From Candidatus Latescibacterota bacterium (GTDB lineage Bacteria > Latescibacterota > UBA2968 > UBA8231): a stretch of DNA of 64,000 bases. Position numbers and translations under genes: made by a program. Where the stretch lies: NCBI GenBank assembly GCA_965242865.1, contig CBDETK010000013.1, positions 320,001 to 384,000 of the forward strand. Reading direction: 5' to 3'. Shown one piece after another: positions 40,986-62,122 of this stretch; position 1 is the stretch's first letter, and each line of letters begins with the position of its first letter. The notes under the pieces are model-generated. The model had not been told where the DNA came from and searched no databases. It saw only the letters and a list, made by a program, of their open reading frames with translations.

Positions 40986-40998
40986 AACGTTCTCCTTT

Positions 40999-45823: not shown

Positions 45824-45853
45824 AGTGCCCTCCTTATTGGGTTGTCCGGCCCC

Positions 45854-46615: not shown

Positions 46616-46616
46616 G

Positions 46617-47161: not shown

Positions 47162-49291
47162 CTAAGGCAACTTGGTCGTCTTTTTCGCTTCTATCTGTCC
47201 TTCGATTTCGACGCGATAGATATACACGCCCGCGGCCACCGCCTTGCCTGTCTCGTCGCGGCCATCCCATACAAACCGATGGCTGCCCGCCTGCAACGGC
47301 CTGTCCCACACCTGCCGCACCCGACGACCCAACACGTCGTACACGGTCAGCGACACGCTCGTCGCGTCCGTTGCCAAATCAAGCGGCAACACCACCGCCG
47401 GATTGAACGGATTGGGATAGCTGTCGCCCAGCCGATACTGCGCCGGGCGCGCTGCCGCCGACGTCAGCACCGCTGTTAGCGGATCGCTCAGCGAACTCTT
47501 GAGCAGATGCACACCGCCCAAGACCGGATCCAACACCACCAAATCGACAGCGCCGTCGCCATCGACATCGCCCGGCAGCACCTGTACCCCATCGCCCTCT
47601 AAGCGATGTGTTTCCACGTCTTCTGTTGGGTTCACGCCCCCGCCCCATTCGACGAACACCCCGAAGCCCGACGCACGATCGCCGCCGACAAACGCCCAGT
47701 CCTCAACCCCATCGGCATTTAAGTCGCCCACCACCACCGGCGAGCGCAAAAACAGCCGCTCATCATACAACACCTCCGTCTCTACAACGCCGCTGGGGCG
47801 GCTGCTCCGCACAACCAGCCCCTTGCGTTGTTCAGCACCGTCGTAGCGCAGGGCCGTCAGCAAGTCCACTTGCCCATCGCTATCAAAATCGCCCGTGCCC
47901 AAAAAAGTATATGAAGCGAGGCTCTGGTCGGCCCCGAGGGCAAATAGGGAGCCTGCCGCAAACTCACCTCCCAACCGAGACACAACCCAAGTATGGGCTT
48001 GGCCAACGATGGGCCCCCACAGCACGTCCAGCCTCCCATCGCCCGTAAGGTCGCCCACCTGAATGGGCACATGATCCTCTGGGAGAGCCGCCACCCGCGA
48101 AGCGGTCCATACGCCACCCGCGACATCCCAGACCTCGAAATAGGACTCGCCAGCCACGGAATAACCTTCTGCATTGTAGTTGACCTCAGAAACGTCCGTG
48201 AAAAAGAGTTCGACATCGCCATCGCCGTCCCAATCCGCTAAGTTTACGAACTCGCGGTTAGGTATCTCCGTCATCACCTCGATCGGGCGGTCCGGCCCCA
48301 TAGACCAAACCGCGACCCGACTGTTTATAGCCAACGCGAGCTCGTCGGTGCCATCGCCGGTTATATCGCCTAGATCCACCTTGAGATAAGCAAGCTCTCC
48401 CACCTGTTCAGTCCATGCGGTTTCAAAGACCCCCTCGCCGTCGTTGAGGGCCATGACCCAACCAGAGGAGGTGTACAAGTCCCGGGGAGGGAGGTGTTGC
48501 CAAACAGAGAAAAGGTCTAAATCGCCATCGCGGTCCAAGTCCGTCAATACACCCGCCCGCTCGTTTCCGAGAACCAACCGGTCGCCTGTGCCCGGCACCA
48601 TGGGATGGAAAGCGGGCGGCTCGAAGTGCCGACCCCTCTCAAAGCGAAAATAGTCGGCTTGGGGTGGCGGTAATTCTCCTTGTAGAATCTCCTCAACGCC
48701 GGTCAACTCGATCCAGTCGATCGCCAAGCGGCCCACCTTTTGCTCGGCCGCACGCGGCACTCCGATTGCGCCCTGATCCAAGTAAAAACTCAGCCGAATA
48801 TCCCGTACCGCACCGGCCCATATAATCTCATCGGGGTCCACAATGGGAATTTCTACTTCTTGCCACTCGGTCGTGTAAACAAAGTCGCGGGGGCCGGGGA
48901 GCAAAAAGCGTCGTTTAGGCCATTCAGGATCGTGCCCCGGCCGCGTGAGGTTGTGTTCATTGGTCCATTTGAAGTTGAAAAAACCGAATGTAGGGCTGTG
49001 ATGGACGGTGCGGAACCGCACTCGCACCCGGTCGAACAGAGCCGAATCGTAGTCCAAGGCGGGAGAAATCACTTCGACGCTCGGATTGTGGTCATCCGAG
49101 CGAAAGGTCTCGATCATCCACGCGCCATCTGCAATCACCCCAGACAACAGGTGGAACTCATGAAAGCCACCCGATGAGACGTCCTTTTTAGCAGCCCATC
49201 CTTGCGCCGTCTCTCCGTCGAAATCCCAAGTGACTGCCGCGGCCGGGCGACTCAACAGCACCATCCCTGCACAAATAGAAACGAGCAACAC
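47162..49291 (-). CDS. Secreted FG-GAP/VCBS-repeat protein with FlgD-type tail (paralog FG5, most divergent)
   Basis: Signal peptide, WDFDG..QGW...IDWIEL N-domain, DxDGDGDxDL repeats, YPNPFNP...WDGRD...GVYIY. Confidence 0.85.
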   Translation of the reverse strand: MLLVSICAGMVLLSRPAAAVTWDFDGETAQGWAAKKDVSSGGFHEFHLLSGVIADGAWMIETFRSDDHNPSVEVISPALDYDSALFDRVRVRFRTVHHSPTFGFFNFKWTNEHNLTRPGHDPEWPKRRFLLPGPRDFVYTTEWQEVEIPIVDPDEIIWAGAVRDIRLSFYLDQGAIGVPRAAEQKVGRLAIDWIELTGVEEILQGELPPPQADYFRFERGRHFEPPAFHPMVPGTGDRLVLGNERAGVLTDLDRDGDLDLFSVWQHLPPRDLYTSSGWVMALNDGEGVFETAWTEQVGELAYLKVDLGDITGDGTDELALAINSRVAVWSMGPDRPIEVMTEIPNREFVNLADWDGDGDVELFFTDVSEVNYNAEGYSVAGESYFEVWDVAGGVWTASRVAALPEDHVPIQVGDLTGDGRLDVLWGPIVGQAHTWVVSRLGGEFAAGSLFALGADQSLASYTFLGTGDFDSDGQVDLLTALRYDGAEQRKGLVVRSSRPSGVVETEVLYDERLFLRSPVVVGDLNADGVEDWAFVGGDRASGFGVFVEWGGGVNPTEDVETHRLEGDGVQVLPGDVDGDGAVDLVVLDPVLGGVHLLKSSLSDPLTAVLTSAAARPAQYRLGDSYPNPFNPAVVLPLDLATDATSVSLTVYDVLGRRVRQVWDRPLQAGSHRFVWDGRDETGKAVAAGVYIYRVEIEGQIEAKKTTKLP

Positions 49292-49376: not shown

Positions 49377-51545
49377 CTAAGGCAGCTTGGTCGTCTTTTT
49401 CGCTTCCACCCGGCCTTCGATTTCGACGCGATAGATATACACGCCCGCGGCTACCGCCTTGCCTGCCTCGTCGCGCCCATCCCATACAAACCGATGGCTG
49501 CCCACCCCCAGCGGCCCCTCCCACACCTGCCGCACCCGACGACCCAGCACATCATGCACCCGCAGCGACACTTCCGTCGCGTCTGTCGCCAAATCGAGGG
49601 GCAGCACCACCGCCGGATTGAACGGGTTGGGATAGCTGTCGCCGAGCGAATGTTGCGCCGGGCGTGCTGCCGCCGACATCTGCACGGCTGTTGCAGTCGA
49701 AGCCAGCGAACTCTTGAGCAGATGGGCACCGCCCAAGATCGGATCCAACACCACCAAGTCGAGATCGCCATCGCCGTCCATGTCACCGGACAGCACGTAT
49801 CGCCCACTGCCGGTCAGCCGGTGCCGCTCGCCTTCTTGGGTCGGATTGACGCTCCCGCCCCATTCGACGAACACGCCAAACCCCGAAGCGCGGTCTCCGC
49901 CAATAAACACCCAGTCGTCCACCCTATCGGCGTTGAGATCGCGTATCAGCACCGGCGAGCGACGCAGCAGCCGATCATCATACAGCACTTCGGCTTCGAG
50001 GCGGTCTCCAGCGCCCTTGCGCTGCAAGACAAGCCCCTTGCTTCCTTCGAGTAGATCGGAGGTGAACTCAGTGAGTACATCCACCTGCCCATCGCCATCA
50101 AAATCGCCCACCCCTAACGGCTTCAACGCTTCACCGACCTCAAAGACCTCGCCCCGCTGAAACGCCTCGGGCGTGCTGTTTTGCAACCCCTCGTCCAAGG
50201 GAGACACAATCCACCCGCGCACCAGATCGCGAATCGGTCCCCAGAACACGGCTACGGTCCCATCGCCGGTAAAGTCGCCGAGGTGATAGGGCGTATATTT
50301 TTCGGAATACGCCACCTCCGCGGACGTCCACTCGCCCTGTTCAACCTCCCAGACCGCTAACGTGCTAAAAAACTCCGCCGTACCATTGAGCATATCGTCT
50401 CTTGTGCCATTATATGTAGCTCCCCCGACAAATAATTCGACCCGGCCATCGCCATCCCAATCGGCCACACTGTGAATCGAGCGGTCAATCTGCACGAGTA
50501 CCTCCACTTGGAGATCCGGGCCGATAGACCACACTTCAGTCGGCAGATCTTGGTTTGTTCCTATGGTTATCGCGATTTCGTCTTTACCATCGCCCGTTAA
50601 ATCAGCACCCACCGCCTCTAAGGACAACTGGGGGACGATTACACTTTCCATTCCCGCCTCGGTACTACTCCCCCTGATGGCCACTACTTTCTTAACAAGC
50701 CCCCGCTCCAAGGCCCCGCGCCCGTCATTGAGGGCCATCAGCCAGCCACTTTCAGGCTCAAGCTCCTGTTGCACTTTCGAGGGTGTGTCCCACAGACCAA
50801 AAAGGTCTAAGTCGCCATCGCCATCCAAGTCCGTCAACACGCCGCCCTTCCGCTCCCCTAGATACCCTCCTACATGAAATTCTTGCCCTGTGCCCGGCGC
50901 AATCGGATAGAACACCGGCGGCGCAAAAAGCCCGGCCCCATCAAAGCGAAAGTACTCTACCAGCGGCGGCGACCGTTCCCCCTGTAGTAGCTCTTCCGCG
51001 CCGGTCAACTCGATCCAGTCAATCTCAAACTTCTCCACTACCTTGGTATCCGAATCAGCCAGTATAAATTCTAGTATGATATTTTTTAACGGACCCTCCC
51101 AGCCGTCTCGATCCGCCACCGACAGCACCACTTCCTGCCACTCGGTGGTATAGACTACTTGTTTGAAAACGAGCGTCTCAAAAGAAGCTCTAAACCCTGA
51201 AGCGTTTTCCCACCCGAGCCCAAGCGTACCCTCCGTAGGGTCGTCATAGACGGTGCGGCAGCGAATTCGGACATAGTCGAACAGGCCCGAATCATACCCG
51301 ATAGCAGGAGAAACCAGTTCGCCTTGCGGCAGGGGGGACACAGCCTTAGTGGCCGAGGGATCGACCGTGATCTGCCATACGCTATCTTCGACCACCCAGG
51401 GAAAATGGTTAAATTCACGCGCACCCCGGATATGTTCTTTAGCGGACCACCCTTGCGTCGTCCCATCGTCGAACTCCCACCGAATCGCCACGGCGGGACC
51501 GCTCCACAGTACAAAGCCGACAACAACGGCGGCAAATTTCAGCAT
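49377..51545 (-). CDS. Secreted FG-GAP/FlgD protein (FG4, subtype A)
   Basis: Same architecture as FG5; central region near-identical to 56870..59059. Confidence 0.85.
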   Translation of the reverse strand: MLKFAAVVVGFVLWSGPAVAIRWEFDDGTTQGWSAKEHIRGAREFNHFPWVVEDSVWQITVDPSATKAVSPLPQGELVSPAIGYDSGLFDYVRIRCRTVYDDPTEGTLGLGWENASGFRASFETLVFKQVVYTTEWQEVVLSVADRDGWEGPLKNIILEFILADSDTKVVEKFEIDWIELTGAEELLQGERSPPLVEYFRFDGAGLFAPPVFYPIAPGTGQEFHVGGYLGERKGGVLTDLDGDGDLDLFGLWDTPSKVQQELEPESGWLMALNDGRGALERGLVKKVVAIRGSSTEAGMESVIVPQLSLEAVGADLTGDGKDEIAITIGTNQDLPTEVWSIGPDLQVEVLVQIDRSIHSVADWDGDGRVELFVGGATYNGTRDDMLNGTAEFFSTLAVWEVEQGEWTSAEVAYSEKYTPYHLGDFTGDGTVAVFWGPIRDLVRGWIVSPLDEGLQNSTPEAFQRGEVFEVGEALKPLGVGDFDGDGQVDVLTEFTSDLLEGSKGLVLQRKGAGDRLEAEVLYDDRLLRRSPVLIRDLNADRVDDWVFIGGDRASGFGVFVEWGGSVNPTQEGERHRLTGSGRYVLSGDMDGDGDLDLVVLDPILGGAHLLKSSLASTATAVQMSAAARPAQHSLGDSYPNPFNPAVVLPLDLATDATEVSLRVHDVLGRRVRQVWEGPLGVGSHRFVWDGRDEAGKAVAAGVYIYRVEIEGRVEAKKTTKLP

Positions 51546-51583: not shown

Positions 51584-51627
51584 AAAGAAAGAGGCCGGCT
51601 TAATCGCGATCATTAAACCGGCCTCTT
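51584..51627 (-). terminator. Intrinsic terminator-like hairpin after peptide P3
   Basis: AAGAGGCCGG...CCGGCCTCTT followed by TCTTT on the minus strand. Confidence 0.7.
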
Positions 51628-51632
51628 ACGCC

Positions 51633-51908
51633 TTAGCAAACGCAGCAATACCAATGCGAACACTCGGCATTGCAGTTCGCATCCAGCCAACATGTCTTAC
51701 ATCTGCAATCCGGCTCGTTCGGGTTTGCCTCGCAACCGGAGCTGCCCTCCAGCACTGTCCATGGGGTGCCGTCGCAGGCTTTCGCTTCCTTGGCCCCGAG
51801 CAGGACGGCGATCCCCGTGAGGACGCTGATGACCCAACCGAGGGCCAACCCCTGCCGAGCCGGCACCAAGCCGCTCGACGATGCGAAAAACTCCCTCAAA
51901 TTCTGCAT
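51633..51908 (-). CDS. Cys-rich secreted peptide precursor P3 (44-aa leader + 47-aa core, 10 Cys)
   Basis: TAGGAG RBS; leader shared with two paralogs; core CDGTPWTVLEGSSGCEANPNEPDCRCKTCWLDANCNAECSHWYCCVC. Confidence 0.88.
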   Translation of the reverse strand: MQNLREFFASSSGLVPARQGLALGWVISVLTGIAVLLGAKEAKACDGTPWTVLEGSSGCEANPNEPDCRCKTCWLDANCNAECSHWYCCVC

Positions 51909-51998
51909 GATTCTCGTCTCCTACGTTGCCCAGTACGCCGGCGGCTCGATGCCGCTACGGCACTGGAAGTGAGTGTTAAAAAAACAGCCGATACGAGT
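51777..51998 (-). repeat. Conserved 5'UTR+leader cassette, copy 3
   Basis: About 220 bp nearly identical to 56647-56867 and 59372-59592. Confidence 0.9.
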
Positions 51999-52000
51999 CC

Positions 52001-54151
52001 TTACGGTAGTTTCGTCGTCTTTTTCGCTTCGACTCGCCCGTCCATCTCGACGCGATAGATATACACGCCCGCGGCTACCGCCTTACCTGCCTCGTCGCGG
52101 CCATCCCATACAAACCGATGGCTGCCCGCCCCCAGCGGCCCCTCCCACACCCGACGCACCCGACGACCCAGCACGTCATGCACCCGCAGCGACACTTCCG
52201 TCGCGTCTGTCGCCAAATCGAGGGGCAGCACCACCGCCGGATTGAACGGATTGGGATAGCTGTCGCCCAGCCGGTATTGCGCCGGGCGTGCTGCCGCCGA
52301 CGTCTGCACGGCTGTCGCGGTCGAAGCCAGCGAACTCTTGAGGACATGCACGCCGCCCAAGATCGGATCCAACACCACCAAATCCTCATCGCCGTCGCCA
52401 TCCATATCCCCGGACAGCACGTGAGTCCCACTGCCCGCCAGCCGGTGCCGCTCGCCGTTTTGGGTCGGATTGACGCTTCCACCCCACTCGACGAACACCC
52501 CAAACCCCGAAGCGCGATCTCCGCCGATAAACACCCAGTCGTCCACCCCATCGCCGTTGAGATCGCGGACCAGCACGGGCGAGCGACGAAACAGCCGATC
52601 ATCATACAGCACCTCGGCTTCGAGGCGGTCGCCGGCCCCCTTGCGCTGCAAGGCCAACCCCTTGCTCCCTTCAATTGTGTCCCGTATGAACTCGGTGAGG
52701 AAATCCACCTGCCCATCGCCATCAAAATCGCCCACCCCTAAGAGTTGCCTCTTCTCCTCGAATGCAAAGTACTCGCTTTGCTGCAACCCCTCGCCCAAAG
52801 CCTGCACAATCCACCTGTTTGACCGACCGGCGATCGGCAACCACACCACGTCTAAGGCCCCGTCGCCGGTAACATCGCCGACCCGAATGGGCGCATAGTT
52901 TGGGTCCGCCGCGACCTCCTCGGCGGTCCACCCGCCCTGTGCTGCATCCCAGACCTCTAACGTGCTTCCCTCAAACGTAACGTCCCGCACAAATAATTCG
53001 ACCCGGCCGTCGCCATCCCAATCTGCGGCATCCGCGAGCCACCGATCCACGATCGGCACGAGCACCTCCACTTGCAGTTCCGGCCCGATAGACCACACTT
53101 CTGTTACCTGCCCCCCGTTGCTGGTAGAGAGCACGATTTCGTCTTGCCCATCGCCGGTCAAATCCGCCCCCATCACCGCTAAGACCACCCCGGGGATGCT
53201 CGTCGCGTCCGTGTCCGCATCCGTACTCGTCTCCCCGGTGGCTGTTACTTCCTCTACGTGCCTCCGTTTCAAGGCTCCGTGCCCATCGTTGAGGGCCATC
53301 AGCCAGCCAACTTTAGCCGCAAACGTCCTCGTCAGACGATACCTCCAGAGGGCGAACAGGTCTAAGTCGCCATCGCCATCCAAGTCCGTTAAGACGCCGA
53401 CCTCCTCTGTATCAAGGTCTCCCCCGATGCCCGGGGCAATCGGATAGAACGCCGGCGAGGCAAACAGGCCGAGCCCGTCCAAGCGAAAGTACTCTACAGG
53501 GGGTGGAGGCAGTTCCCCCTGTAAGAGCTCTTCCACGCCAGTCAACTCGATCCAGTCAACCTCAAACCACTCAATCTCAACCACATCCGCCGCCGACCAA
53601 GGGTTTACCTCTGTATCGAGAAAAAAACGGAGCCTAATATCTTTTAATAGCCCCTCCCATATCGTCTCGTCTTGACCGGCCAACGGCAGCACCAATTCCT
53701 GCCACTCAGTGGTATAGACTAGGTCTTGGACGGGGGTGGCAAACCGGCTGCTCGACAGCAGCGGGTCTTCTGGATCCGAACCGGAAGCCAAGGCGTTGTG
53801 CTCGTTGGTCCAAGCGACCGAAAAATGACCGACCGTAGGGTGGTCATGGACGGTGCGGCAGCGGATGCGAACCCGGTCAAACAGGTCCGAATTGTACCCG
53901 ATCATTGGGGAAATCAATTTGAAATCCGCCCGAGAATCACTCCCTCTAGTGCTGGAGGAATCGACCGCGATCCGCCACACGCCATCTTCGACCACACTTG
54001 GAAACAGGTTCGTTTCACGCGGTCCTCCCCCTCCTATAAGTCCTTCTGTGGCAGACCACCCTTGCGTCGTCCCGTCGTCGAACTCCCACCGGACCGCCGT
54101 GGCGGGATCGTCCCACAGCACCACGGCAACAGCGGCGAATAGCAGCATCAT
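52001..54151 (-). CDS. Secreted FG-GAP/FlgD protein (FG3, subtype B)
   Basis: Same architecture; central region near-identical to 54196..56334. Confidence 0.85.
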   Translation of the reverse strand: MMLLFAAVAVVLWDDPATAVRWEFDDGTTQGWSATEGLIGGGGPRETNLFPSVVEDGVWRIAVDSSSTRGSDSRADFKLISPMIGYNSDLFDRVRIRCRTVHDHPTVGHFSVAWTNEHNALASGSDPEDPLLSSSRFATPVQDLVYTTEWQELVLPLAGQDETIWEGLLKDIRLRFFLDTEVNPWSAADVVEIEWFEVDWIELTGVEELLQGELPPPPVEYFRLDGLGLFASPAFYPIAPGIGGDLDTEEVGVLTDLDGDGDLDLFALWRYRLTRTFAAKVGWLMALNDGHGALKRRHVEEVTATGETSTDADTDATSIPGVVLAVMGADLTGDGQDEIVLSTSNGGQVTEVWSIGPELQVEVLVPIVDRWLADAADWDGDGRVELFVRDVTFEGSTLEVWDAAQGGWTAEEVAADPNYAPIRVGDVTGDGALDVVWLPIAGRSNRWIVQALGEGLQQSEYFAFEEKRQLLGVGDFDGDGQVDFLTEFIRDTIEGSKGLALQRKGAGDRLEAEVLYDDRLFRRSPVLVRDLNGDGVDDWVFIGGDRASGFGVFVEWGGSVNPTQNGERHRLAGSGTHVLSGDMDGDGDEDLVVLDPILGGVHVLKSSLASTATAVQTSAAARPAQYRLGDSYPNPFNPAVVLPLDLATDATEVSLRVHDVLGRRVRRVWEGPLGAGSHRFVWDGRDEAGKAVAAGVYIYRVEMDGRVEAKKTTKLP

Positions 54152-54195
54152 AGCCTATCTCCTTTGCAACAGGCAAAAAAGAATGTCCTCTTACG

Positions 54196-56334
54196 TTACG
54201 GCAGTTTCGTCGTCTTTTTCGCTTCTACCCGGCCGTCCATCTCGACGCGATAGATATACACGCCCGCGGCCACCGCCTTACCTGCCTCGTCGCGGCCATC
54301 CCATACAAACCGATGGCTGCCTGCCCGCAACGGCCCCTGCCACATCTGACGCACCCGACGACCCAACACGTCATGTACCCGCAGCGAGACCGCCGCGTCC
54401 TCGGCCAAATCGAGGGGCAGCACCACCGCCGGATTGAACGGATTGGGATAGCTGTCGCCCAGCCGGTACTGCGCCGGGCGTGCTGCCGCCGACATCTGCA
54501 CGGCTGTCGCGGTCGAAGTCAGCGAACTCTTGAGGACATGCACGCCGCCCAAGATCGGATCCAACACCACCAAATCCTCATCGCCGTCGCCATCCATATC
54601 CCCGGACAGCACGTGAGTCCCACTGCCCGCCAGCCGGTGCCGCTCGCCGTCTTGGGTCGGATTGACACTTCCACCCCACTCGACGAACACCCCAAACCCC
54701 GAAGCGCGATCTCCGCCGATAAACACCCAGTCGTCCACCCCATCGCCGTTGAGATCGCGGACCAGCACGGGCGAGCGACGAAACAGCCGATCATCATACA
54801 GCACCTCGGCTTCGAGGCGGGCGCCGGCCCCCTTGCGCTGCAAGGCCAACCCCTTGCTCCCTTCGATTGTGTCCCGTATGAACTCGGTGAGGAAATCCAC
54901 CTGCCCATCGCCATCAAAATCGCCCACCCCTAAGAGTTGCCTCTTCTCCTCGAATGCAAAGTACTCGCTTTGCTGCAACCCCTCGCCCAAAGCCTGCACA
55001 ATCCACCTGTTTGACCGACCGGCGATCGGCACCCACACCACGTCTAAGGCCCCATCGCCGGTAATATCGCCAACCCGATAGGGTCCATAGTCTGGGTCTG
55101 CCGCGACCTCCTCGACGGTCCATTTGCCCTGTTCGACGTCCCAGACCTCTAACGTGCCGCCAGCAAACTCAACATCCTCTACAAATAATTCGACCCGGCC
55201 GTCGCCGTCCCAATCCGCGGCATCCGTGATCCATCGATCCGCGATCGGCACGAGCACCTCCACTTGTAGTTCCGGCCCGATAGACCACACTTCTGTTACC
55301 TCTACCGCACTGGTACTTGTAGAGAGCACGATTTCGTCTTGCCCATCGCCGGTCAAGTCCGCACCCATCACCGCTAAGACCACCCCGGAGATGCTCGTCG
55401 CACCCGTGTCCTCATCCGTACTCGTCTCCCCGGTGGCTGTTACTTCCTCTACGCGCCTCAGTTTCAAGGCCCCGTGCCCGTCATTGAGGGCCATCACCCA
55501 GCCCACGTTAGCCCTTTCAACACCGATACGACTGTCGTCATAGAGAGCGAACAGGTCTAAGTCGCCATCGCCCTCCAAGTCCGTTAAAACGCCCGCTCCT
55601 CCAAGTGCCTTCCCGATGCCTGGGGCAATCGGATAGAACACCGGTGGGTCAAACAGACCAACCCCACCAAAGCGCAAGTACTCCACCGGCGGCGGCGACC
55701 GTTCCCCCTGTAAGAGCTCTTCCACGCCGGTCAACTCGATCCAGTCGATCTCAAACCACGCCACCACCTCAGCCGCCGATGGGTCTTGCAGATCAAACTC
55801 TATATCCAGCATAAAACTGAGCTGAATATCTTTTAACAGACCCTCCCATATCGTCTCGTCTTGCCCGGCCAACGACAGCACCAATTCCTGCCACTCGGTG
55901 GTATAGACGATTGGTTGTACGCGGCTTTGAAATCGGCTTCCAGAGGGCCGATCTTCTGGATCCCAACCGGACGACAGGGCGTTGTGCTCGTTGGTCCACT
56001 CCATTGAAACATTACCGACCGTCGGGCGGTGATGAACAGTGCGGAACCGGATGCGGACCCGGTCGAACAGACCTGAATCGTACCCGATGGTCGAGGAAAT
56101 CACTTCGACACTTGGCGTGAAGTAATTGCCTTTGACGATGGCGGGATCGACCTCGATCCGCCACACGCCGTCTTCGACTTCGCCCGGAAACTGGTGCAAT
56201 TCACGCACCCCACCCCATACAAGCGCTTCTTTGGCGGACCACCCTTGCGTCGTCCCATCGTCAAACTCCCACCGAATCGCCGAGGCGGGACCGCTCCACA
56301 GCACCACGGCGGCAACGACAGCTAGCTTCAACAT
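54196..56334 (-). CDS. Secreted FG-GAP/FlgD protein (FG2, subtype B)
   Basis: Same architecture; GGAGG RBS. Confidence 0.85.
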   Translation of the reverse strand: MLKLAVVAAVVLWSGPASAIRWEFDDGTTQGWSAKEALVWGGVRELHQFPGEVEDGVWRIEVDPAIVKGNYFTPSVEVISSTIGYDSGLFDRVRIRFRTVHHRPTVGNVSMEWTNEHNALSSGWDPEDRPSGSRFQSRVQPIVYTTEWQELVLSLAGQDETIWEGLLKDIQLSFMLDIEFDLQDPSAAEVVAWFEIDWIELTGVEELLQGERSPPPVEYLRFGGVGLFDPPVFYPIAPGIGKALGGAGVLTDLEGDGDLDLFALYDDSRIGVERANVGWVMALNDGHGALKLRRVEEVTATGETSTDEDTGATSISGVVLAVMGADLTGDGQDEIVLSTSTSAVEVTEVWSIGPELQVEVLVPIADRWITDAADWDGDGRVELFVEDVEFAGGTLEVWDVEQGKWTVEEVAADPDYGPYRVGDITGDGALDVVWVPIAGRSNRWIVQALGEGLQQSEYFAFEEKRQLLGVGDFDGDGQVDFLTEFIRDTIEGSKGLALQRKGAGARLEAEVLYDDRLFRRSPVLVRDLNGDGVDDWVFIGGDRASGFGVFVEWGGSVNPTQDGERHRLAGSGTHVLSGDMDGDGDEDLVVLDPILGGVHVLKSSLTSTATAVQMSAAARPAQYRLGDSYPNPFNPAVVLPLDLAEDAAVSLRVHDVLGRRVRQMWQGPLRAGSHRFVWDGRDEAGKAVAAGVYIYRVEMDGRVEAKKTTKLP

Positions 56335-56390
56335 GCTATCACCTCCATAGAGACATTTTCAGAAGACTGAGCACGGTCCGTAAGTGCGAA

Positions 56391-56434
56391 GGAAAAGAGG
56401 GCCGGCTCAAGAATAGCTCCTGAGCCGGACCCTT
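56391..56434 (-). terminator. Terminator-like hairpin after peptide P2
   Basis: GGG.CCGGCTCA...TGAGCCGGCCC followed by TCTTTT on the minus strand. Confidence 0.65.
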
Positions 56435-56493
56435 CCCTTCAGCTTCTTGGACCGAGAAACAGCCCTACCAGCCAGCTAGCGGATGTCCTGATC

Positions 56494-56778
56494 TTAGGCG
56501 ACGCAGGAACAGCTTGTTACATTAATCACATTGCATTCGTCGTCCAGCCACTTGGTGCAGCACCGGAACGGCTTATCCGGATAAACTTCCGCGCACCCGG
56601 CATGCCAAGAACAATCTGTCCGTTGGCCCGGGCAGCTACCGTCACCGGCTTTCGCTTCCTTGGCCCCGAGCAGGACGGTGATCCCCGTGAGGACGCTGAT
56701 GACCCAGCCCAGTGCCAAACCCTGCCGAGCCGGTGCCAACCCGCTCGACGACGTGAAAAACTCCCGCAATTTCTGCAT
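56494..56778 (-). CDS. Cys-rich secreted peptide precursor P2 (44-aa leader + 50-aa core, 8 Cys)
   Basis: Core GDGSCPGQRTDCSWHAGCAEVYPDKPFRCCTKWLDDECNVINVTSCSCVA. Confidence 0.88.
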   Translation of the reverse strand: MQKLREFFTSSSGLAPARQGLALGWVISVLTGITVLLGAKEAKAGDGSCPGQRTDCSWHAGCAEVYPDKPFRCCTKWLDDECNVINVTSCSCVA

Positions 56779-56867
56779 GATTCTCGTCTCCTACGTTGCC
56801 CAGTACGCCAGCGGCCCGATACCGCGATGGCACTGGAAGTGAGGGTTGAAAAACAGCCGATACGAGT
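56647..56867 (-). repeat. Conserved 5'UTR+leader cassette, copy 2
   Basis: Starts 2 nt after the FG1 stop codon, matching the position of copy 3 after FG3. Confidence 0.9.
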
Positions 56868-56869
56868 CC

Positions 56870-59059
56870 TTACGGCAGCTTCGTCGTCTTCTTCGCTTCC
56901 ACCTGTCCGTCCATCTCGACGCGATAGATATACACCCCAGCGGCCACCGCCTTGCCTGTCTCGTCGCGGCCATCCCATACAAACCGATGGCTGCCTGCCC
57001 CCAGCGGCCCCTGCCACACCTGCCGCACCCGACGACCCAACACATCATGCACTCGCAACGAGACCGCCGCGTCCTCGGCCAAATCAAGAGGAATCACCAC
57101 CGCCGGATTAAACGGATTGGGATAGCTGTCGCCGAGCCGGTATTGCGCCGGGCGCACATCCGCCGACGTCTGCACGGCTGTCGCTGTTGAGGCCAGCGAA
57201 TTCTTGAGGACATGCACGCCGCCCAAGATCGGATCCAACACCACCAAATCGAGGTCGCCATCGCCATCCATATCCCCGGACAGCACGGTTCTCCCATTGC
57301 CCGCCAGCCGATGCCGCTCGCCTTCTTGGGTCGGATTGACAAGCCCCCCCCACTCGACGAACACGCCAAACCCCGAAGCGCGGTCTCCGCCAATAAACAC
57401 CCAATCGTCCACCCTATCGGCGTTGAGATCGCGTATCAGCACCGGCGAGCGACGCAGCAGCCGATCATCATACAGCACTTCGGCTTCGAGGCGGTCTCCA
57501 GCGCCCTTGCGCTGCAAGACAAGCCCCTTGCTTCCTTCGAGTAGATCGGAGGTGAACTCAGTGAGTACATCCACCTGCCCATCGCCATCAAAATCGCCCA
57601 CCCCTAACGGCTTCAACGCTTCACCGCCCTCAAAGACCTCGCTCCGCTTCAACGCTTCAGGCTCGCTGCTCTGCAACGCCTTGTCCAAGGGAGACACAAT
57701 CCACCCTTGCGCCAAATTGCGAATCGGTCCCCAGAACACGTCAAGAATCCCATTGCCGGTAAAGTCGCCGATGTGAACGGGCGCGTATTTTTCGGAATAC
57801 GCCACCTCCGAGGACATCCACCCGCCCGGTTTGAACTCCCAGACCGCTAACGTGCTAAAAAACTTCGCTGTACCCGCACGTGCTTCCTTGAGAGTGCCAT
57901 TATGTGTAGCTCCCCCGACAAATAATTCGATCCGGTCATCGCCATCCCAATCGGCCACACTATGAACCCAGCTATCGATCTGTACGAGCACCTCCACTTG
58001 GAGGTCCGGGCCGATAGACCACACTTCAGTTGCAGGCTCCCGGTTGCTTCTCGATAGGACGATTTCGGCTTGACCATCGCCGGTCAAATCGGCCCCAAGG
58101 ACTTGCAAGGCCACCCCTCGGGCGACTATTGCCACCTCCCCTCCTATGGCGGCTCCTTCCTCCTCCCCTGTGGCGGCTCCTTCCTCTATAACAGGCCCCC
58201 GTTCCAAGGCTCCACGCCCATCATTGAAGGCCATCAGCCAGCCCGTTTTCTCCTTACGAGACCCATGATCATTAGGTATTTTCATTTCCCAGAGACCGAA
58301 CAGGTCTAAATCGCCATCGCCATCCAAGTCCGTCAACACATTGCCCGCTCCCCCCCCTAGATACCTGCTTCGACCCCCTCGTGCTTCCCCGATGCCTTTG
58401 GCAATCGGATAGAACACCGGCGGCGCAAAAAGCCCCGTCCCCGCAAAGCGAAAGTACTGCTCTACCGGCGGCGGGGGGAGTTCCCCTTGGAGCACCTCTT
58501 CCACGCCGGTCAACTCGATCCAGTCGATCTCAAACGCCTCCACCACCTCGGTCGTCGAATCTAAATCCAGCATAAAACTGAACCGAAGGTTTCTCAACAG
58601 GCCCTCCCATTCGGCTTGACCCTCCAACGAGACCTCCACTTCCTGCCACGCGGTGGTATAGACTACTTGTTGGACGGGGGTGTCGTCTTGCAAAAAAACA
58701 TGACCTGAAGCGTTGTCCCATTGCACGTAAAAAGTGCCCTCGGTCGGGCGATCATGGACGGTGCGGAAGCGGAGGCGAACCCGGTCGAACAGACCCGAAT
58801 CATACCCGATGGTTGAAGAAACCACTTCGACACTCAGCCGGGAGGGGTCGAAACTGTTGGCAACGGCGGGATCGACCCGGATCCGCCACACGCCCTCGTC
58901 AACTTCGCCGGGAAACTGGTGAAATTCACGCGTACCCCCCGATACATCAGCTTCTTTGGCGGTCCACCCTTGGGTCGTCCCGTCGTCGAACTCCCACCGA
59001 ATCGCCGCGGCGGGGATGCTCCACAGCACAAGCCCTACAACAGCAGCAAACTTCAGCAT
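56870..59059 (-). CDS. Secreted FG-GAP/FlgD protein (FG1, subtype A)
   Basis: Start at MLKFAA after AAGGAG; same architecture. Confidence 0.85.
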   Translation of the reverse strand: MLKFAAVVGLVLWSIPAAAIRWEFDDGTTQGWTAKEADVSGGTREFHQFPGEVDEGVWRIRVDPAVANSFDPSRLSVEVVSSTIGYDSGLFDRVRLRFRTVHDRPTEGTFYVQWDNASGHVFLQDDTPVQQVVYTTAWQEVEVSLEGQAEWEGLLRNLRFSFMLDLDSTTEVVEAFEIDWIELTGVEEVLQGELPPPPVEQYFRFAGTGLFAPPVFYPIAKGIGEARGGRSRYLGGGAGNVLTDLDGDGDLDLFGLWEMKIPNDHGSRKEKTGWLMAFNDGRGALERGPVIEEGAATGEEEGAAIGGEVAIVARGVALQVLGADLTGDGQAEIVLSRSNREPATEVWSIGPDLQVEVLVQIDSWVHSVADWDGDDRIELFVGGATHNGTLKEARAGTAKFFSTLAVWEFKPGGWMSSEVAYSEKYAPVHIGDFTGNGILDVFWGPIRNLAQGWIVSPLDKALQSSEPEALKRSEVFEGGEALKPLGVGDFDGDGQVDVLTEFTSDLLEGSKGLVLQRKGAGDRLEAEVLYDDRLLRRSPVLIRDLNADRVDDWVFIGGDRASGFGVFVEWGGLVNPTQEGERHRLAGNGRTVLSGDMDGDGDLDLVVLDPILGGVHVLKNSLASTATAVQTSADVRPAQYRLGDSYPNPFNPAVVIPLDLAEDAAVSLRVHDVLGRRVRQVWQGPLGAGSHRFVWDGRDETGKAVAAGVYIYRVEMDGQVEAKKTTKLP

Positions 59060-59121
59060 GATAGCACAACTCCTTTCCAACAGGTAACATTCCGACAGAC
59101 TGCACCCTATCCATGAGTACG

Positions 59122-59167
59122 AAAGGGAAGGGGGGCCGGCTGAATCGCTACGATTAAACCGGCCCTT
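59122..59167 (-). terminator. Terminator-like hairpin after peptide P1
   Basis: GGGCCGG..AATCG-TAG-CGATT..CCGGCCC, then a pyrimidine tract with a weak U run. Confidence 0.55.
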
Positions 59168-59221
59168 ACACCTTAACAGGAGAAACGGTCCTACAGCCGC
59201 TAAGGTGGTCCCAGATATACT

Positions 59222-59503
59222 TCAAGCGCAGCAATAGGAAGGCTCGCACGATTCAACGCAATGTATGTCTAGCTGACAGTCCCGACATTCCTGCGCCGCG
59301 TCCCCGTTCGTGGCCCTGTCGCAACCTGCGCTGTACCCAAGGTTATCTGTCCACTCTTCCTCAAAGCAATATGCTTCGCCTTCCTTGGCCCCGAGCAGGA
59401 CGGTGATCCCCGTCAGGACGCTGATGACCCAGCCCAGTGCCAAACCCTGCCGAGCCGGCGCCAACCCGCTCGACGACGCGAAAAACTCCCGCAATTTCTG
59501 CAT
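59222..59503 (-). CDS. Cys-rich secreted peptide precursor P1 (44-aa leader + 49-aa core, 8 Cys)
   Basis: Core YCFEEEWTDNLGYSAGCDRATNGDAAQECRDCQLDIHCVESCEPSYCCA. Confidence 0.88.
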   Translation of the reverse strand: MQKLREFFASSSGLAPARQGLALGWVISVLTGITVLLGAKEGEAYCFEEEWTDNLGYSAGCDRATNGDAAQECRDCQLDIHCVESCEPSYCCA

Positions 59504-59592
59504 GATTCTCGTCTCCTAAGTTGCCCAGTACGCCGGCGGCCCGATACCGCTACGGCACTGGAAGTGAGGGTTGAAAAACAGCCGATACGAGT
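59372..59592 (-). repeat. Conserved 5'UTR+leader cassette, copy 1
   Basis: Nearly identical to the other two copies. Confidence 0.9.
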
Positions 59593-59642
59593 TCGCATCC
59601 CCTCCTTTCTTTTTCATCGGCCTTGCTTCTACGGATTATATA

Positions 59643-59658
59643 AGCAAATTGCGTGCCA
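59643..59658 (-). promoter_or_regulatory. sigma-54 (-24/-12) promoter
   Basis: TGGCACG-CAAT-TTGCT, full match to TGGCACG-N4-TTGCW, about 140 bp before the P1 ATG. Confidence 0.85.
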
Positions 59659-59711: not shown

Positions 59712-59778
59712 ATATGAGACTTAAAATAATGGACGCGGCTTCTTACGAGCGGCGGCCTCAGCCCGTGGCGCACGGCTT

Positions 59779-59854
59779 TACACGATTTTCCGTGGGTTCT
59801 ACACGATTTTCCGTGGATTGTACACGATTTTCCGTGGATTACACGACTTTCCGG
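59779..59854. repeat. Four direct repeats TACACGATTTTCCGTGG (spacing 21, 21, 19), candidate enhancer-binding sites
   Basis: Starts at 59779, 59800, 59821, 59840; dyad CACG-N6-CGTG in the first three, degenerate in the fourth. Confidence 0.75.
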
Positions 59855-59971: not shown

Positions 59972-61006
59972 TCAGCGCAAAGGATGAAGATTGAGCATTA
60001 ACGCACGCTCGGCCATTTCGTCGTCCGAGATGGTCTGATGCGTTTCGTGAAACGCCATCAGACTAGGGAGACGCAGCTCCTCTGGGATTAGGGAATCCGG
60101 CCATAGCGAGGCAAACCAAAATTCGATCAGGTATAGCTTGGGGTCGTTGTTCTTCTCCGCTATACGGACTATGGCCTTATGCCGTTTTTGCGATTCTGCA
60201 AACGCATTTTGCGGGCTGAAAAAGTCGTGGTGGTGATACAGGTGATAGCTCTGCGCCTTAGCTGCAAAGCACATTTTATGTCCATGCTGCATGAGGCGAT
60301 AGGCCAAATCCCACCCTTCAGAATGGGGCAGCTCTTCGTCAAACCCCCCGACCTCCTCAAGAGCGGTGCGCGAGGCCGCAGCATTATGTGGATAAAAACT
60401 GATCCAACCAATCGGCGAATCGGGCACTTGGTCAAAGAGCACTTGTACCTGGTCTTGCATTCGCTTTAATTCCGGGAAGGGATACCCACCCTCTTGGGCC
60501 AGTCGATCAATCGCGCCAAAATCCGACTGTATCGCAGCCTCGGTCACCCGAAATTCCTCCGGGTACGTCCGCACAACCTGAGCAACCGCTGCCGGAACGT
60601 CCTCCCAAGGAAGGCCGCCGTGCGGGTCTTGGACGTACTCCAAGCGGGGCAAGCAATACTGGAACCCGCTCGTTACGCCGTGGTAGCACTGAAATAGCTG
60701 CCAATGTTGAGCCAACCAATCGGGACCCGGTAGCGCGTCTCCGTCCAAGAAGGCGATCAAGTCGCCCCGCGCCTCCGCGATACCGATGTTCCGCGCCCGA
60801 CAGCGCCCGACATTGGCATGCAAGGGAATGACTTTTATGGGAATGGGCTCGTATTCACGCAGAAAATCCCCCGTCCCGTCCGTGCTGCCATCGTCCACTA
60901 CTACAACCTCAAATTGGCCGGAGAATGTTTGCACGGCCAAGCCGCTTAAAACAAGCCGCAAGCGATCGCGCTGATTGTGTGCGGCAATGACGACAGAAAC
61001 ATCCAT
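59972..61006 (-). CDS. GT2 family glycosyltransferase
   Basis: SVVI..HN, VVVDDGSTDGT, ARN.G, FLDGD, GGFDE, E..DL.YRL; ATG 61006 after AAGGAG. Confidence 0.88.
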   Translation of the reverse strand: MDVSVVIAAHNQRDRLRLVLSGLAVQTFSGQFEVVVVDDGSTDGTGDFLREYEPIPIKVIPLHANVGRCRARNIGIAEARGDLIAFLDGDALPGPDWLAQHWQLFQCYHGVTSGFQYCLPRLEYVQDPHGGLPWEDVPAAVAQVVRTYPEEFRVTEAAIQSDFGAIDRLAQEGGYPFPELKRMQDQVQVLFDQVPDSPIGWISFYPHNAAASRTALEEVGGFDEELPHSEGWDLAYRLMQHGHKMCFAAKAQSYHLYHHHDFFSPQNAFAESQKRHKAIVRIAEKNNDPKLYLIEFWFASLWPDSLIPEELRLPSLMAFHETHQTISDDEMAERALMLNLHPLR

Positions 61007-61047
61007 TGCGCTCGCTCCTTTATATAACAATCCTACATCATTCAAGA

Positions 61048-61074
61048 CTGGATTCCCGCATTCGCGGGAATGAC
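61048..61074 (-). repeat. dRS3-like REP (GTCATTCCCGCGAATGCGGGAATCCAG)
   Basis: Differs by one base from 47028-47054; inverted orientation. Confidence 0.8.
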
Positions 61075-61135
61075 TCCTCATAGGCAAAAAGACGGCGTCG
61101 ATGAACATTTCATACTTTCAAGTCATTTATAATTG

Positions 61136-62122
61136 CTATATACACTCAAGGACCAAGCGGCACTCCTCCTTCAGAGTGTCCGGTCGGTGTATATGAGGCA
61201 AGCCGTTATCCGTCTCTTCATACACCACGGCTTGGGGCACTTCCTTGACAGAGTTGGAGCACACGACGTGGAAGCAATCCAAATGGCCGAAGAAAAAGTC
61301 AAAATACGGCTCGCTATTCTCCAAGACCTTGGGGCGCAATACCTCACTTTGCACATTGGCCTCCGTCAGTGCTGGCGTACCGATACTGATACCGTGAAAC
61401 TCCACGGGAAGCCATCCCAAACCTGCGATAAAAAGCTCAGCCCACGTGTGCCCAAACACCACTTCGTTGTACGTGCGGTTCTCGTAGCGGTTCGGCCCCA
61501 GCGGGTTGACGGCGATGGCTCCGGTTTGCTCGCGGGCGGGTATCTTTAGCTGGCGACAAAGGGCAATAAATGCACGCGCCAACGTAATACAATGTCCGCC
61601 GTCGTCTGTCAGTGCTTTTAGGGTGCTGCATTGATAGCACTGGCAGCTATCTTTGGTTTTCTTGAAATGCTTGTTCTTGGCCAAATAGCAGTACAACAAA
61701 CGAGCTTTTTCTACATCGCTCAATGCTTCGTCTATGCCCACATCCTCCCAACAACGGCGGACGAGCGGATGATCGACCAAGGATTCGTCAACGGCTGTAT
61801 AGAACCTGAACTGTTCGGGCGCGAGCACTTCTGTTGTCCGTGTAGTGCCCATCCCTCTCGCACAAACCGTCAACTCGCAGACGTAAGAAAACGCATAGGC
61901 CCCATCGGAGCTAAAATCACAAACCGCAGGATAGTTGTAGAAAAAACCCGCGTGTGGCAAAAAGTGTTCTTGCATCCCTGCCGGATGGCAAGATAGCAGC
62001 TTTATATCCGTCTGAAAGTCCGTGGATATTGGGTAGGGCAGAAATATCCGCGTATTGTGGGTTGTATCCTCGGCCGCAGACAGGGTGAAGGTATAAGTTA
62101 GCTGCAAGTGCTGGCTCTCCAC
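61136..62122 (-). CDS. Transglutaminase-like cysteine protease domain (possibly the C-terminal half of the upstream gene)
   Basis: GHC....AFIALCR...IPAR...G, HTWAE, GWLPVE; extra CQCYQC motif; no clear RBS. Confidence 0.8.
   Translation of the reverse strand: MESQHLQLTYTFTLSAAEDTTHNTRIFLPYPISTDFQTDIKLLSCHPAGMQEHFLPHAGFFYNYPAVCDFSSDGAYAFSYVCELTVCARGMGTTRTTEVLAPEQFRFYTAVDESLVDHPLVRRCWEDVGIDEALSDVEKARLLYCYLAKNKHFKKTKDSCQCYQCSTLKALTDDGGHCITLARAFIALCRQLKIPAREQTGAIAVNPLGPNRYENRTYNEVVFGHTWAELFIAGLGWLPVEFHGISIGTPALTEANVQSEVLRPKVLENSEPYFDFFFGHLDCFHVVCSNSVKEVPQAVVYEETDNGLPHIHRPDTLKEECRLVLECI

What the first reader, a model, noticed from the sequence alone, without database searches (positions are those of the whole stretch)
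51633..59503. Peptide Cys framework co-varies with the subtype of the next FG-GAP gene (cognate pairs)
Seen: P1 and P3 share the exact spacing CxxCxLDxxCxxxCxxxYCC plus WT and SxGC. Each is followed by a subtype A gene (FG1, FG4: W[DE]NASG; GEALKPLGVGDFDGDGQVDVLTEFTSDLLEG). P2 has a different framework (CCTKWLDDECN...CSC) and is followed by subtype B genes (FG2, FG3: WTNEHN insertion; EEKRQLLGVG...FLTEFIRDTIEG). P3 has exactly one more Cys pair than P1, which fits gain or loss of a whole disulfide. Inference: ligand-partner coevolution. Simple block duplication of P1-FG1 into P3-FG4 also explains it, and n is only 3.
Basis: partly seen in the sequence, partly recalled or inferred. Interest (0 to 1): 0.75.

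Follow-up and report, generated by a model that had tools for sequence, protein, structure and literature searches.

The report
Linked secreted peptide and propeller cassettes
An uncultured Latescibacterota bacterium carries arrays of two-gene cassettes, each a small secreted cysteine-rich peptide followed by a large surface-exported propeller protein, and peptide type and propeller type are inherited together across related species, which makes a peptide-receptor pairing plausible but does not prove it.

Summary
P1 and P3 share one Cys framework and are followed by W[DE]NASG-type FG-GAP genes. P2 has another framework and is followed by WTNEHN-type genes. In fetched regions of 9 genomes of one Latescibacterota genus, all 16 FG-GAP genes that directly follow an alpha-framework peptide form one clade (SH-aLRT 100). 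Six peptide classes map onto the tree of the FG variable region with 5 changes, the minimum possible; shuffled labels need about 16.

The cause is a cassette. The peptide core and the variable part of the FG gene lie between two blocks that gene conversion keeps uniform within each genome: the 5'UTR plus leader, and the T9SS C-terminal domain. P1-FG1 and P3-FG4 are old paralogous cassette lineages with separate orthologues elsewhere, not a recent block copy.

The effective number of independent contrasts is only about 5-7, so coevolution of a binding interface is not shown.

The cassettes belong to a larger, undescribed sigma-54-controlled cluster. It holds a sensor-activator, an A24-type peptidase, two thioredoxin-like proteins, glycosyltransferases and DUF4159. 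The genome also encodes T9SS parts.

The parts
59777..59853 (-). Tandem 21-bp repeat (3.8 copies), a candidate enhancer for the sigma-54 activator
   Evidence: In one search, three copies spaced 21 bp apart lie upstream of five of the six minus-strand sigma-54 promoter copies; two were found at the orphan peptide.
59644..59658 (-). Sigma-54 (-24/-12) type promoter TGGCACGCAATTTGC. It is the only one in the finding's region, so P1 through FG5 are probably one operon.
   Evidence: the only zero-mismatch match in the window; the same element stands before 5 peptide units of the cluster and the orphan peptide. The consensus used is recalled.
59504..59600 (-). Conserved 5'UTR block with a GGAG ribosome site. 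Copies also precede P2 (56779-56869) and P3 (51909-52000).
   Evidence: near-identical in 8 of 8 peptide genes; not significantly structured (z -0.2 to -1.3).
59222..59503 (-). P1: a 44-residue leader/signal plus a 49-residue core with 8 Cys (alpha8 framework)
   Evidence: Core model pLDDT 92.5. No Pfam or NCBIfam match.
59133..59165 (-). GC-rich hairpin with a C/U-rich tail after P1, attenuator-like
   Evidence: intergenic fold z -2.65.
56870..59080 (-). FG1: signal peptide, N-terminal beta-rich domain, FG-GAP repeats and a T9SS type A C-terminal domain. A clade, A8 subclade. The likely start is the Met at 59059.
56494..56778 (-). P2: the same leader, with a beta-framework core of 8 Cys
56402..56428 (-). 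Hairpin with a 12-bp stem and a U-rich tail after P2
   Evidence: z -3.35.
54196..56334 (-). FG2: FG-GAP/T9SS protein, WTNEHN type
52001..54151 (-). FG3: sister of FG2. Its C-terminal ~220 codons are nearly identical to FG2 (pS 0.02), a conversion tract.
51633..51908 (-). P3: the same leader, with an alpha10 core of 10 Cys
51590..51626 (-). Hairpin with a U-rich tail after P3
   Evidence: z -3.15.
49377..51545 (-). FG4: A clade, A10 subclade
47162..49291 (-). FG5: trailing FG-GAP/T9SS gene of a different clade, not mentioned in the finding
59972..61108 (-). GT2 glycosyltransferase, a conserved member of the cluster
   Evidence: 76-85% identical copies beside the arrays in 8 other genomes, and a 45% identical copy in the second cluster.
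61136..63606 (-). GT-B (MGT-like) plus transglutaminase-core protein. It is a single ~825-residue protein in relatives. Here it is split into two ORFs at an A-run near 62143-62150.
63618..64000 (-). TPR protein of the cluster; it runs off the window

Best explanation
SHOWN
- The region is one sigma-54-driven operon of three cassettes: P1-FG1, P2-FG2-FG3 and P3-FG4-FG5.
- A cassette has five parts in order: (i) a 5'UTR and a 44-residue leader that are almost identical in every copy within a genome; (ii) a hypervariable 45-55-residue core with 6-12 Cys, mostly 8; (iii) a hairpin with a U-rich tail; (iv) an FG-GAP gene with a divergent N-terminal domain and propeller; (v) a T9SS C-terminal domain that is again uniform within a genome.
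- The variable middle, core plus FG variable region, is inherited as one block. The cassette lineages (alpha8/A8, alpha10/A10, beta, gamma, delta, epsilon) have members in several species of the genus.

INFERRED
- The leader works as a Sec signal: basic n-region, a 19-residue hydrophobic stretch and an AxA site.
- The core folds in the periplasm into a compact disulfide-bonded mini-domain. In relatives, cluster-encoded thioredoxin-like proteins probably help.
- The propeller protein is exported and surface-attached by the T9SS.
- The peptide acts together with the propeller encoded next to it, most likely as its ligand or as cargo that leaves the cell bound to it. The free peptides lack an export domain, whereas sister genes in the same clusters fuse the same Cys modules directly to a T9SS domain.
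For: Cassette anatomy and operon:
- One sigma-54 promoter lies before P1 only. P2 and P3 keep just the 95-nt UTR.
- There is a hairpin after each peptide gene.

Homogenised ends:
- Leader pS is 0.04-0.33 against core pS 0.40-1.0 in 21 of 21 pairs.
- UTR plus leader are 80-100% identical at DNA level, and identity drops to 36-68% in the core.
- The CTD tree follows the genome (11 changes of the genome label, minimum 8) and not the peptide class (13 changes, shuffled mean 15.6).

Linkage of core and FG variable region:
- Class changes on the segment trees are 5, 5 and 6 for the N-terminal domain, propeller part 1 and propeller part 2. The minimum is 5; shuffled means are about 16 and the lowest shuffle is 11-13 of 300.
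- IQ-TREE on FG1 residues 30-447: the 16 alpha-linked FG genes from 8 genomes sit on one side of a branch (SH-aLRT 100). All classes need 5 changes, and 0 of 200 shuffles are as low.

Old lineages: alpha8-like and alpha10-like cores go with the A8 and A10 subclades in 15 of 16 cases.

Secretion:
- TIGR04183 matches at 28.8 bits against a cut-off of 23.
- PorU and SprA score above their cut-offs, and a PorV-like gene lies beside PorU.

Disulfides:
- Cys counts are even in 153 of 166 family members.
- The extra pair is all-or-none in 16 of 16 alpha peptides.
- The core model has pLDDT 92.5.
- Two ResA/TlpA-like genes are in the cluster in relatives.

Fused forms: 15 of 61 leader-bearing ORFs carry Cys modules plus a T9SS domain. 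These include beta-like and gamma-like modules.

Conserved company: a paralogous second cluster in the same genome keeps the peptide, FG, GT and peptidase/thioredoxin genes at 37-56% identity.
Against: - No direct evidence of binding.
- The pairing is not one-to-one. Units hold 1-5 FG genes per peptide.
- 8 of 24 A-clade genes are not preceded by an alpha peptide.
- Two genomes have two alpha peptides in tandem before one FG gene.
- An orphan peptide has its own promoter and no FG gene.
- In G000 the FG gene next to the U1 peptide (U1a) is a recent intruder. The orthologue of the partner seen in G019 is the second gene, U1b.
- In the window's own cluster the peptidase and thioredoxin genes are deleted and the GT-B/transglutaminase gene is split, so this copy may be decaying.
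- All genomes are MAGs of one genus, so the contrasts are few.
- The FG1 model was poor (pLDDT 57.7), so the variable positions could not be placed on a surface.
Confidence: 0.6

Rival explanations
1. One reading: true coevolution of a binding interface. Changes in the peptide core select for compensating changes in the adjacent propeller, beyond what linkage gives.
For: - Zero discordance between class and FG.1 clade in 36 pairs.
- The association holds in the N-terminal domain and the propeller but not in the CTD.
- Fast protein change in both partners: core dN/dS is 0.77 between the recent copies U4 and U5, and pN/pS is about 0.8-1.0 in FG residues 121-330 between U4a and U4b.
Against: - Linkage between homogenised flanks predicts the same pattern.
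- There are only about 5-7 independent contrasts.
- Trailing and orphan FG genes exist, as do tandem peptides.
- No rate-correlation or interface test was possible.
Confidence: 0.35
2. Linkage only. Peptides and propellers are separate secreted products of one regulon that never touch; they co-vary because they sit in one recombination block.
For: - The variable stoichiometry and the orphans.
- Gene conversion mosaics show that DNA mechanics shape the array.
Against: - The order peptide-then-FG is kept in 36 of 46 free peptides examined, and in a 40%-identical paralogous cluster.
- Free peptides have no export domain of their own, while fused sisters do.
Confidence: 0.3
3. Defensin-like bacteriocins. 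The peptides are antimicrobial, and the propellers serve as self-protection, a decoy or a delivery partner, like toxin-immunity cassettes.
For: - A hypervariable core on a fixed Cys scaffold with a conserved signal.
- The best structural neighbour in two searches is the bacteriocin laterosporulin3: Z 3.9, rmsd 3.4 over 42 of 49 residues; Foldseek rank 2, E 1.8.
- The arrays hold many cassettes.
Against: - The structural match is weak, below the level the tool calls meaningful.
- A 720-residue T9SS propeller is unlike known immunity proteins.
- No transporter or lysis gene was seen.
Confidence: 0.15
4. Pilin-like processing. The conserved R-x-G before the hydrophobic stretch is cut by the cluster's A24-family peptidase. 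The peptide then keeps a hydrophobic N-terminal helix and stays membrane- or fibre-bound.
For: - A Peptidase_A24 / FlaK-like gene is in the cluster in 7 of the 8 other genomes (none in the G019 regions fetched) and in the second cluster of G000.
- R18 and G20 are invariant, and L21-x-L23-G24-W25 is invariant, across 24 diverse members.
Against: - There is no Glu at +5; that defining feature is recalled.
- No assembly ATPase or platform gene was seen in the clusters.
- An AxA site follows the hydrophobic stretch in all members seen.
- Fused forms need a soluble periplasmic intermediate for T9SS export.
Confidence: 0.1

Closest known systems
T9SS type A cargo proteins of the FCB group (C-terminal sorting domain, TIGR04183 / PF18962)
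   Same: The FG proteins have a signal peptide and a C-terminal domain above the TIGR04183 cut-off. The genome has PorU, SprA and a PorV-like gene.
   Different: The cargo genes come in arrays, each headed by a small Cys-rich peptide gene, under sigma-54 control. I found no paper that links Latescibacteria with T9SS or with FG-GAP (0 papers each).
Conserved-signal, hypervariable Cys-framework secreted peptides (cone-snail toxins, defensins; recalled). Among bacteria, the defensin-like class IId bacteriocins laterosporulin and actifensin (PMC5396196 and PMC6989792: search listing and start of abstract only).
   Same: A near-invariant signal region, a hypervariable mature part, a fixed even-numbered Cys scaffold, and many paralogues per genome.
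   Different: No sequence similarity to any solved chain. Fold similarity to laterosporulin3 is weak (Z 3.9). The host is Gram-negative, the signal is Sec-type, and there is a partner propeller gene.
Toxin-immunity or bacteriocin-immunity cassettes with conserved flanks and variable centres (polymorphic toxin loci; recalled)
   Same: Arrays of two-gene modules in which both variable parts change together, with conserved ends that allow recombination.
   Different: No toxin domain was recognised. The partner is a large exported propeller, not a small cytoplasmic or membrane immunity protein.
Integrin alpha-subunit FG-GAP propellers that bind small disulfide-rich ligands such as disintegrins (recalled analogy)
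   Same: An FG-GAP repeat propeller (PF13517 above cut-off) encoded beside a small multi-disulfide peptide.
   Different: This is only an analogy. No homology of the peptides and no binding data.
Hitch-hiker export of signal-less partners with a signal-bearing partner (Tat; peroxisomal piggyback; PMC9251779, passages read)
   Same: The proposed route: a partner without an export tag leaves bound to a tagged, folded partner.
   Different: That paper does not describe this for T9SS in the passages read. Here it is inference only.

Membership tests
FG-GAP repeat proteins (PF13517 FG-GAP_3 / PF01839) | Repeats score above the Pfam gathering cut-off | tested here: met
   PF13517 scores 40.8-62.6 bits (cut-off 26.9) in FG1-FG5.
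T9SS type A cargo | C-terminal sorting domain above the curated cut-off | tested here: met
   TIGR04183 at 28.8 bits (cut-off 23) for FG1 and 33.8 for a fused peptide. The Pfam models score below their cut-offs: PF18962 at 19.2 bits on FG5 only, PF13585 at 16.8-18.8 bits on FG2, FG3 and FG5 (cut-off 27). PF13860 (FlgD_ig) covers the same stretch at 42.6-47.9 bits.
T9SS type A cargo | The genome encodes the T9SS machinery | tested here: met
   PorU 624 bits (cut-off 420). SprA 482 bits (cut-off 200). PorV-like 147 bits, below the cut-off of 250, next to PorU. The Gld/PorKLMN genes were not searched.
T9SS type A cargo | N-terminal Sec signal peptide | not testable with these tools
   The sequence shows a hydrophobic N-terminus ending in AAA before IRWEF. 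No signal-peptide predictor was available.
Type IV pilin-like (class III signal) substrates of A24 peptidases | Gly at -1 after a short basic leader, followed by about 20 hydrophobic residues | tested here: inconclusive
   R18 and G20 are invariant before a 19-residue hydrophobic stretch. The leader is 20 residues long, and an AxA site follows the stretch.
Type IV pilin-like (class III signal) substrates of A24 peptidases | Glu at +5 (bacterial pilins; recalled) | tested here: not met
   Position +5 is the invariant W25.
Type IV pilin-like (class III signal) substrates of A24 peptidases | Assembly ATPase and platform protein nearby | tested here: not met
   None among the genes of the clusters in 9 genomes. 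Only the recurring genes were run through Pfam, and several ORFs in the synteny table were left unannotated.
RiPP precursors (for example glycocins made by GT2 enzymes; recalled) | A leader recognised and removed by a dedicated enzyme, and a core modified by a neighbouring enzyme | not testable with these tools
   GT2 and GT-B/transglutaminase genes are conserved neighbours. The leader, however, looks like an export signal. No chemistry can be inferred.
Defensin-like class IId bacteriocins (laterosporulin) | Shared fold or sequence | tested here: inconclusive
   No PDB sequence match at E up to 1. The best fold match is 6lwy at Z 3.9 and Foldseek E 1.8.

The most novel reading that the evidence does not exclude
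A hitch-hiker export and display system. Hypervariable disulfide-rich peptides that lack any export tag leave the periplasm bound to the cognate FG-GAP propeller, which carries the T9SS domain. The many cassette types give each Latescibacterota strain a combinatorial set of surface peptide-propeller complexes used for recognising or antagonising neighbours. A membrane sensor-activator switches the set on through sigma-54.
Probability: 0.2. Interest if true: 0.85.

Novelty: new variant of a known kind. Interest (0 to 1): 0.62.

Why it matters
The peptide family has no name, no Pfam or NCBIfam model and no solved relative. It has 108 close homologues, all unnamed, and 85 representatives among 1.84 billion proteins.

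The family sits in a conserved cluster of an uncultured phylum. That cluster joins sigma-54 control, dedicated redox helpers and T9SS cargo.

If peptide and propeller bind, this would be a bacterial example of a diversifying ligand-receptor cassette system and a new way for T9SS to export small proteins. It would also be a natural library of small stable disulfide scaffolds, each matched to a binder.

If they do not bind, the locus still shows clearly how conserved flanks and gene conversion keep two variable genes in step.

Tried and rejected
1. Complex prediction of the FG1 ectodomain with the P1 core: no verdict. The score was 0.83, but one control with the propeller replaced scored 0.73. 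It counts neither for nor against binding.
2. FG1 structure: mean pLDDT 57.7. That is too poor to map the subtype residues, so no fold search was run on it.
3. Atlas search with the FG1 N-terminal domain: carbohydrate-binding-module-like clusters at 0.86-0.88, below the level the tool trusts. It is a lead only.
4. Fold searches with the confident P1 core model: no match at Foldseek E <= 0.001 and no Z >= 5.
5. RNA evidence: no RNA holder listed.
6. Search for longer fused forms of P1: one protein of 263 residues with the export domain, and no peptide-FG fusion. The tool itself calls this weak evidence.
7. Earlier findings of the scan: nothing to show.
8. Sigma-70 promoter scan: 4 sites against 4.8 expected, so not used.
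9. Rejected: 'subtype B' as a natural group.
10. Rejected: P1-FG1 to P3-FG4 as a recent block copy.
11. Rejected: a structured RNA in the conserved 5'UTR (z -0.2 to -1.3).
Full report
WHAT IS THERE

All features lie on the minus strand.

The five large genes carry FG-GAP repeats (PF13517, 40.8-62.6 bits). Their C-terminal domain matches FlgD_ig, and in FG1 it scores above the TIGR04183 cut-off for the T9SS type A sorting domain. The peptides match no Pfam or NCBIfam model.

Overall identity is only weakly structured. FG1-FG4 is 72%, FG1-FG2 is 70.5%, FG2-FG3 is 81%, and FG5 is 54-56% to the rest.

THE SAME GENOME GIVES A LARGER SAMPLE

The window is G000:C13:320001-384000. The array continues beyond it. 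Between C13:367162 and 411813 there are 7 peptide-led units with 13 FG genes.

Three frameworks occur in these units:
- Alpha: P1, P3 and U4.
- Beta: P2 and U1.
- Gamma: U2 and U3.

The FG gene directly after the peptide is of the W[DE]NASG type after all three alpha peptides. It is of one distinct type after both gamma peptides, and of WTNEHN types after both beta peptides.

A second cluster lies at C13:3.149-3.205 Mb. It has peptides with a divergent form of the same leader and about 20 FG genes at about 40% identity. Two of its leader-bearing ORFs fuse the Cys modules directly to a T9SS domain. One orphan peptide lies at C13:2271170-2271463.

OTHER GENOMES

With P1 as query, 22 of 61 genomes had a match, G000 included. 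That is 20 of the 30 other genomes of the genus, 0 of 6 genomes of other genera in the family, and one weak hit elsewhere (E 6e-4). Record titles name the group as Candidatus Latescibacterota MAGs.

I fetched 20 regions from 8 of these genomes. In these regions plus G000, a leader profile found 61 leader-bearing ORFs: 46 free peptides and 15 fused to a T9SS domain. There were also 77 full-length FG genes.

- In a FastTree of all 77, every FG gene that directly follows an alpha peptide falls in one clade of 24 (support 100).
- On the 63 class-I genes, the 6 peptide classes need 5, 5, 6 and 13 changes on trees of the N-terminal domain, propeller part 1, propeller part 2 and the C-terminal domain. 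The minimum is 5. Shuffled labels give means of 15.6-16.3, and the lowest of 300 shuffles was 13, 12, 11 and 13.
- An IQ-TREE run on FG1 residues 30-447 gives the same answer. The 16 alpha-linked genes sit on one side of a branch (SH-aLRT 100). All classes need 5 changes, and 0 of 200 shuffles are as low.
- Within the A clade, alpha8-like cores go with one subclade and alpha10-like cores with another in 15 of 16 cases. The exception follows a tandem alpha8-alpha10 pair.

So P1-FG1 and P3-FG4 are two old cassette lineages. Each has relatives in other species.

WHY THE TWO GENES STAY IN STEP

The 95-nt 5'UTR and the 132-nt leader are 80-100% identical among all copies in G000. Identity falls to 36-68% in the core. 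Synonymous divergence is 0.04-0.33 in the leader and 0.40-1.0 in the core, in all 21 pairs.

Leaders also carry genome-specific substitutions that are shared by all classes within a genome. This is concerted evolution. The C-terminal domain behaves the same way: its tree follows the genome rather than the class.

Conversion tracts are visible inside the FG genes. FG2 and FG3 have pS 0.02 over residues 441-660 against 0.36-0.42 upstream. FG1 and FG4 have pS 0.08 over residues 441-520, with 98-100% DNA identity over about 240 nt.

The first motif is older and is diagnostic of the clade. W[DE]Nxx G occurs in 15 of 15 captured A-clade genes, and WTN[EQ][HY]N in 30 of 30 captured others. 'Subtype B' is therefore simply 'not A'.

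The variable middle of a cassette thus lies between two recombination-prone uniform blocks and moves as one piece. Linkage alone predicts the covariation.

LIMITS OF THE PAIRING

- Units hold 1 to 5 FG genes.
- 8 of 24 A-clade genes are not preceded by an alpha peptide. They are trailing genes or follow fused peptides.
- Two genomes have two alpha peptides before a single FG gene.
- One peptide has no FG gene at all.
- In G000 the gene next to the U1 peptide belongs to a recently copied group. The second gene is the sister of the partner that follows the similar peptide in G019.

The rows are kin, so the number of independent contrasts is about 5-7, not 36.

THE PEPTIDES

A profile of 24 diverse members shows invariant E6, F7, S10, S12, G13, R18, G20, L21, L23, G24 and W25, then a hydrophobic stretch and an AxA-like site.

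Cys counts after the leader are even in 153 of 166 family members. Eight Cys is the commonest count, in 102 members. Among 16 alpha peptides, the two extra Cys are both present in 7 and both absent in 9, including within alpha8-like sequences.

The P1 core folds with high confidence: pLDDT 92.5, a beta-hairpin, a helix and two short strands. It has no sequence match in the PDB and only weak fold neighbours. The best neighbour is the bacteriocin laterosporulin3 (Z 3.9).

REGULATION AND COMPANY

A perfect sigma-54-type promoter (59644-59658) lies before P1 only. Upstream of it sits a 21-bp tandem repeat with three evenly spaced core matches. The same pair of elements precedes the other four promoter-bearing units of the cluster and the orphan peptide, where two repeat copies were found. 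P2 and P3 have only the UTR, so P1 to FG5 is probably one operon. Each peptide gene is followed by a strong hairpin with a U-rich tail (z -2.7, -3.4, -3.2). This would let peptide message exceed propeller message.

In the other genomes the cassettes sit in a conserved cluster that holds:
- a 1055-residue sigma-54 activator with Reg_prop / Y_Y_Y sensor repeats;
- a 196-residue membrane protein;
- a Peptidase_A24 / FlaK-like protein;
- two ResA/TlpA-like thioredoxins;
- a TPR protein;
- an 825-residue GT-B plus transglutaminase-core protein;
- a GT2;
- DUF4159.

The second cluster of G000 keeps the set at 37-56% identity. That argues for a functional unit rather than chance synteny.

In the window's own cluster a deletion joins the 196-residue gene to the TPR gene and removes the peptidase and both thioredoxins. 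In addition, the GT-B/transglutaminase gene is split at an A-run. The split could be a homopolymer error of the assembly.

The genome encodes PorU and SprA above their cut-offs, and a PorV-like gene.

READING

Shown: old, linked peptide-propeller cassettes with homogenised ends.

Inferred: Sec export, periplasmic disulfide folding, T9SS export of the propeller, and a joint extracellular role. The peptide would be the ligand or hitch-hiking cargo of its neighbour. This last point rests on the fused sister genes and on the absence of an export tag on free peptides. Coevolution of an interface, a bacteriocin role and pilin-like processing remain open rivals.

LITERATURE

No paper in the searched library holds Latescibacteria together with FG-GAP or with type IX secretion. 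A search for FG-GAP, type IX secretion and cysteine-rich gave nothing relevant. Supplementary files were not consulted.

Noticed in passing
window 47162-49291 (-): FG5 is a fifth FG-GAP/T9SS gene directly after FG4. It belongs to a different clade; its sisters are a G007 gene and the first gene of the peptide-less array at C13:488964. The finding does not mention it.
   Followed up: yes
window 62098-62150 (-): The GT-B plus transglutaminase-core gene is one ~825-residue ORF in 8 other genomes. Here it is split into ORFs of 502 and 328 residues at a run of A. This is either a real frameshift or a homopolymer error of the assembly.
   Followed up: partly
G000:C13:383621-384939 (just past the window end; the TPR gene starts at window 63618): A deletion joins residues 1-141 of the 196-residue membrane protein to residues 108-401 of the TPR protein. 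It removes the A24-type peptidase and both thioredoxin-like genes that relatives have at this place.
   Followed up: partly
G000:C13:3149197-3205134: A second, paralogous cluster with its own sigma-54 activator, peptidase, thioredoxins, GT genes, four DUF4159 genes, about 20 FG genes and divergent peptides. Two leader-bearing ORFs there fuse one or two Cys modules to a T9SS domain.
   Followed up: partly
G000:C13:2271170-2271463 and 2271627-2271800: An orphan peptide gene (6 Cys) with its own sigma-54 promoter and 21-bp repeats, and no FG gene nearby.
   Followed up: partly
G000:C13:488964-496002, promoter at 493762: An array of three FG genes without any peptide gene found. A copy of the sigma-54 promoter and the 21-bp repeats lies directly before the third gene. 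One more promoter copy, at C13:2312881, was not examined.
   Followed up: no
G000:C13:1676-5136 and 2011058-2015967: Two further paralogous pairs of the GT-B/transglutaminase and GT2 genes (30-45% identity), one with a TPR gene. No search for peptides was made there.
   Followed up: no
window 39447-46633 (-): Downstream of the array lie a MotA/ExbB-like gene, an FHA-domain gene, a PP2C phosphatase, a Ser/Thr kinase with ankyrin repeats and a second kinase. No link to the cassettes was tested.
   Followed up: no
L032:15999-17096, L034:12455-13552, L035:13002-14099 (G019): A 365-residue WD40 propeller gene stands next to fused-peptide genes in the arrays of one genome.
   Followed up: no
L041:2937-3209 (G002): A beta-type peptide has lost two Cys (6 left) at positions that are Cys in its closest relatives. 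This is another example of change by pairs.
   Followed up: partly
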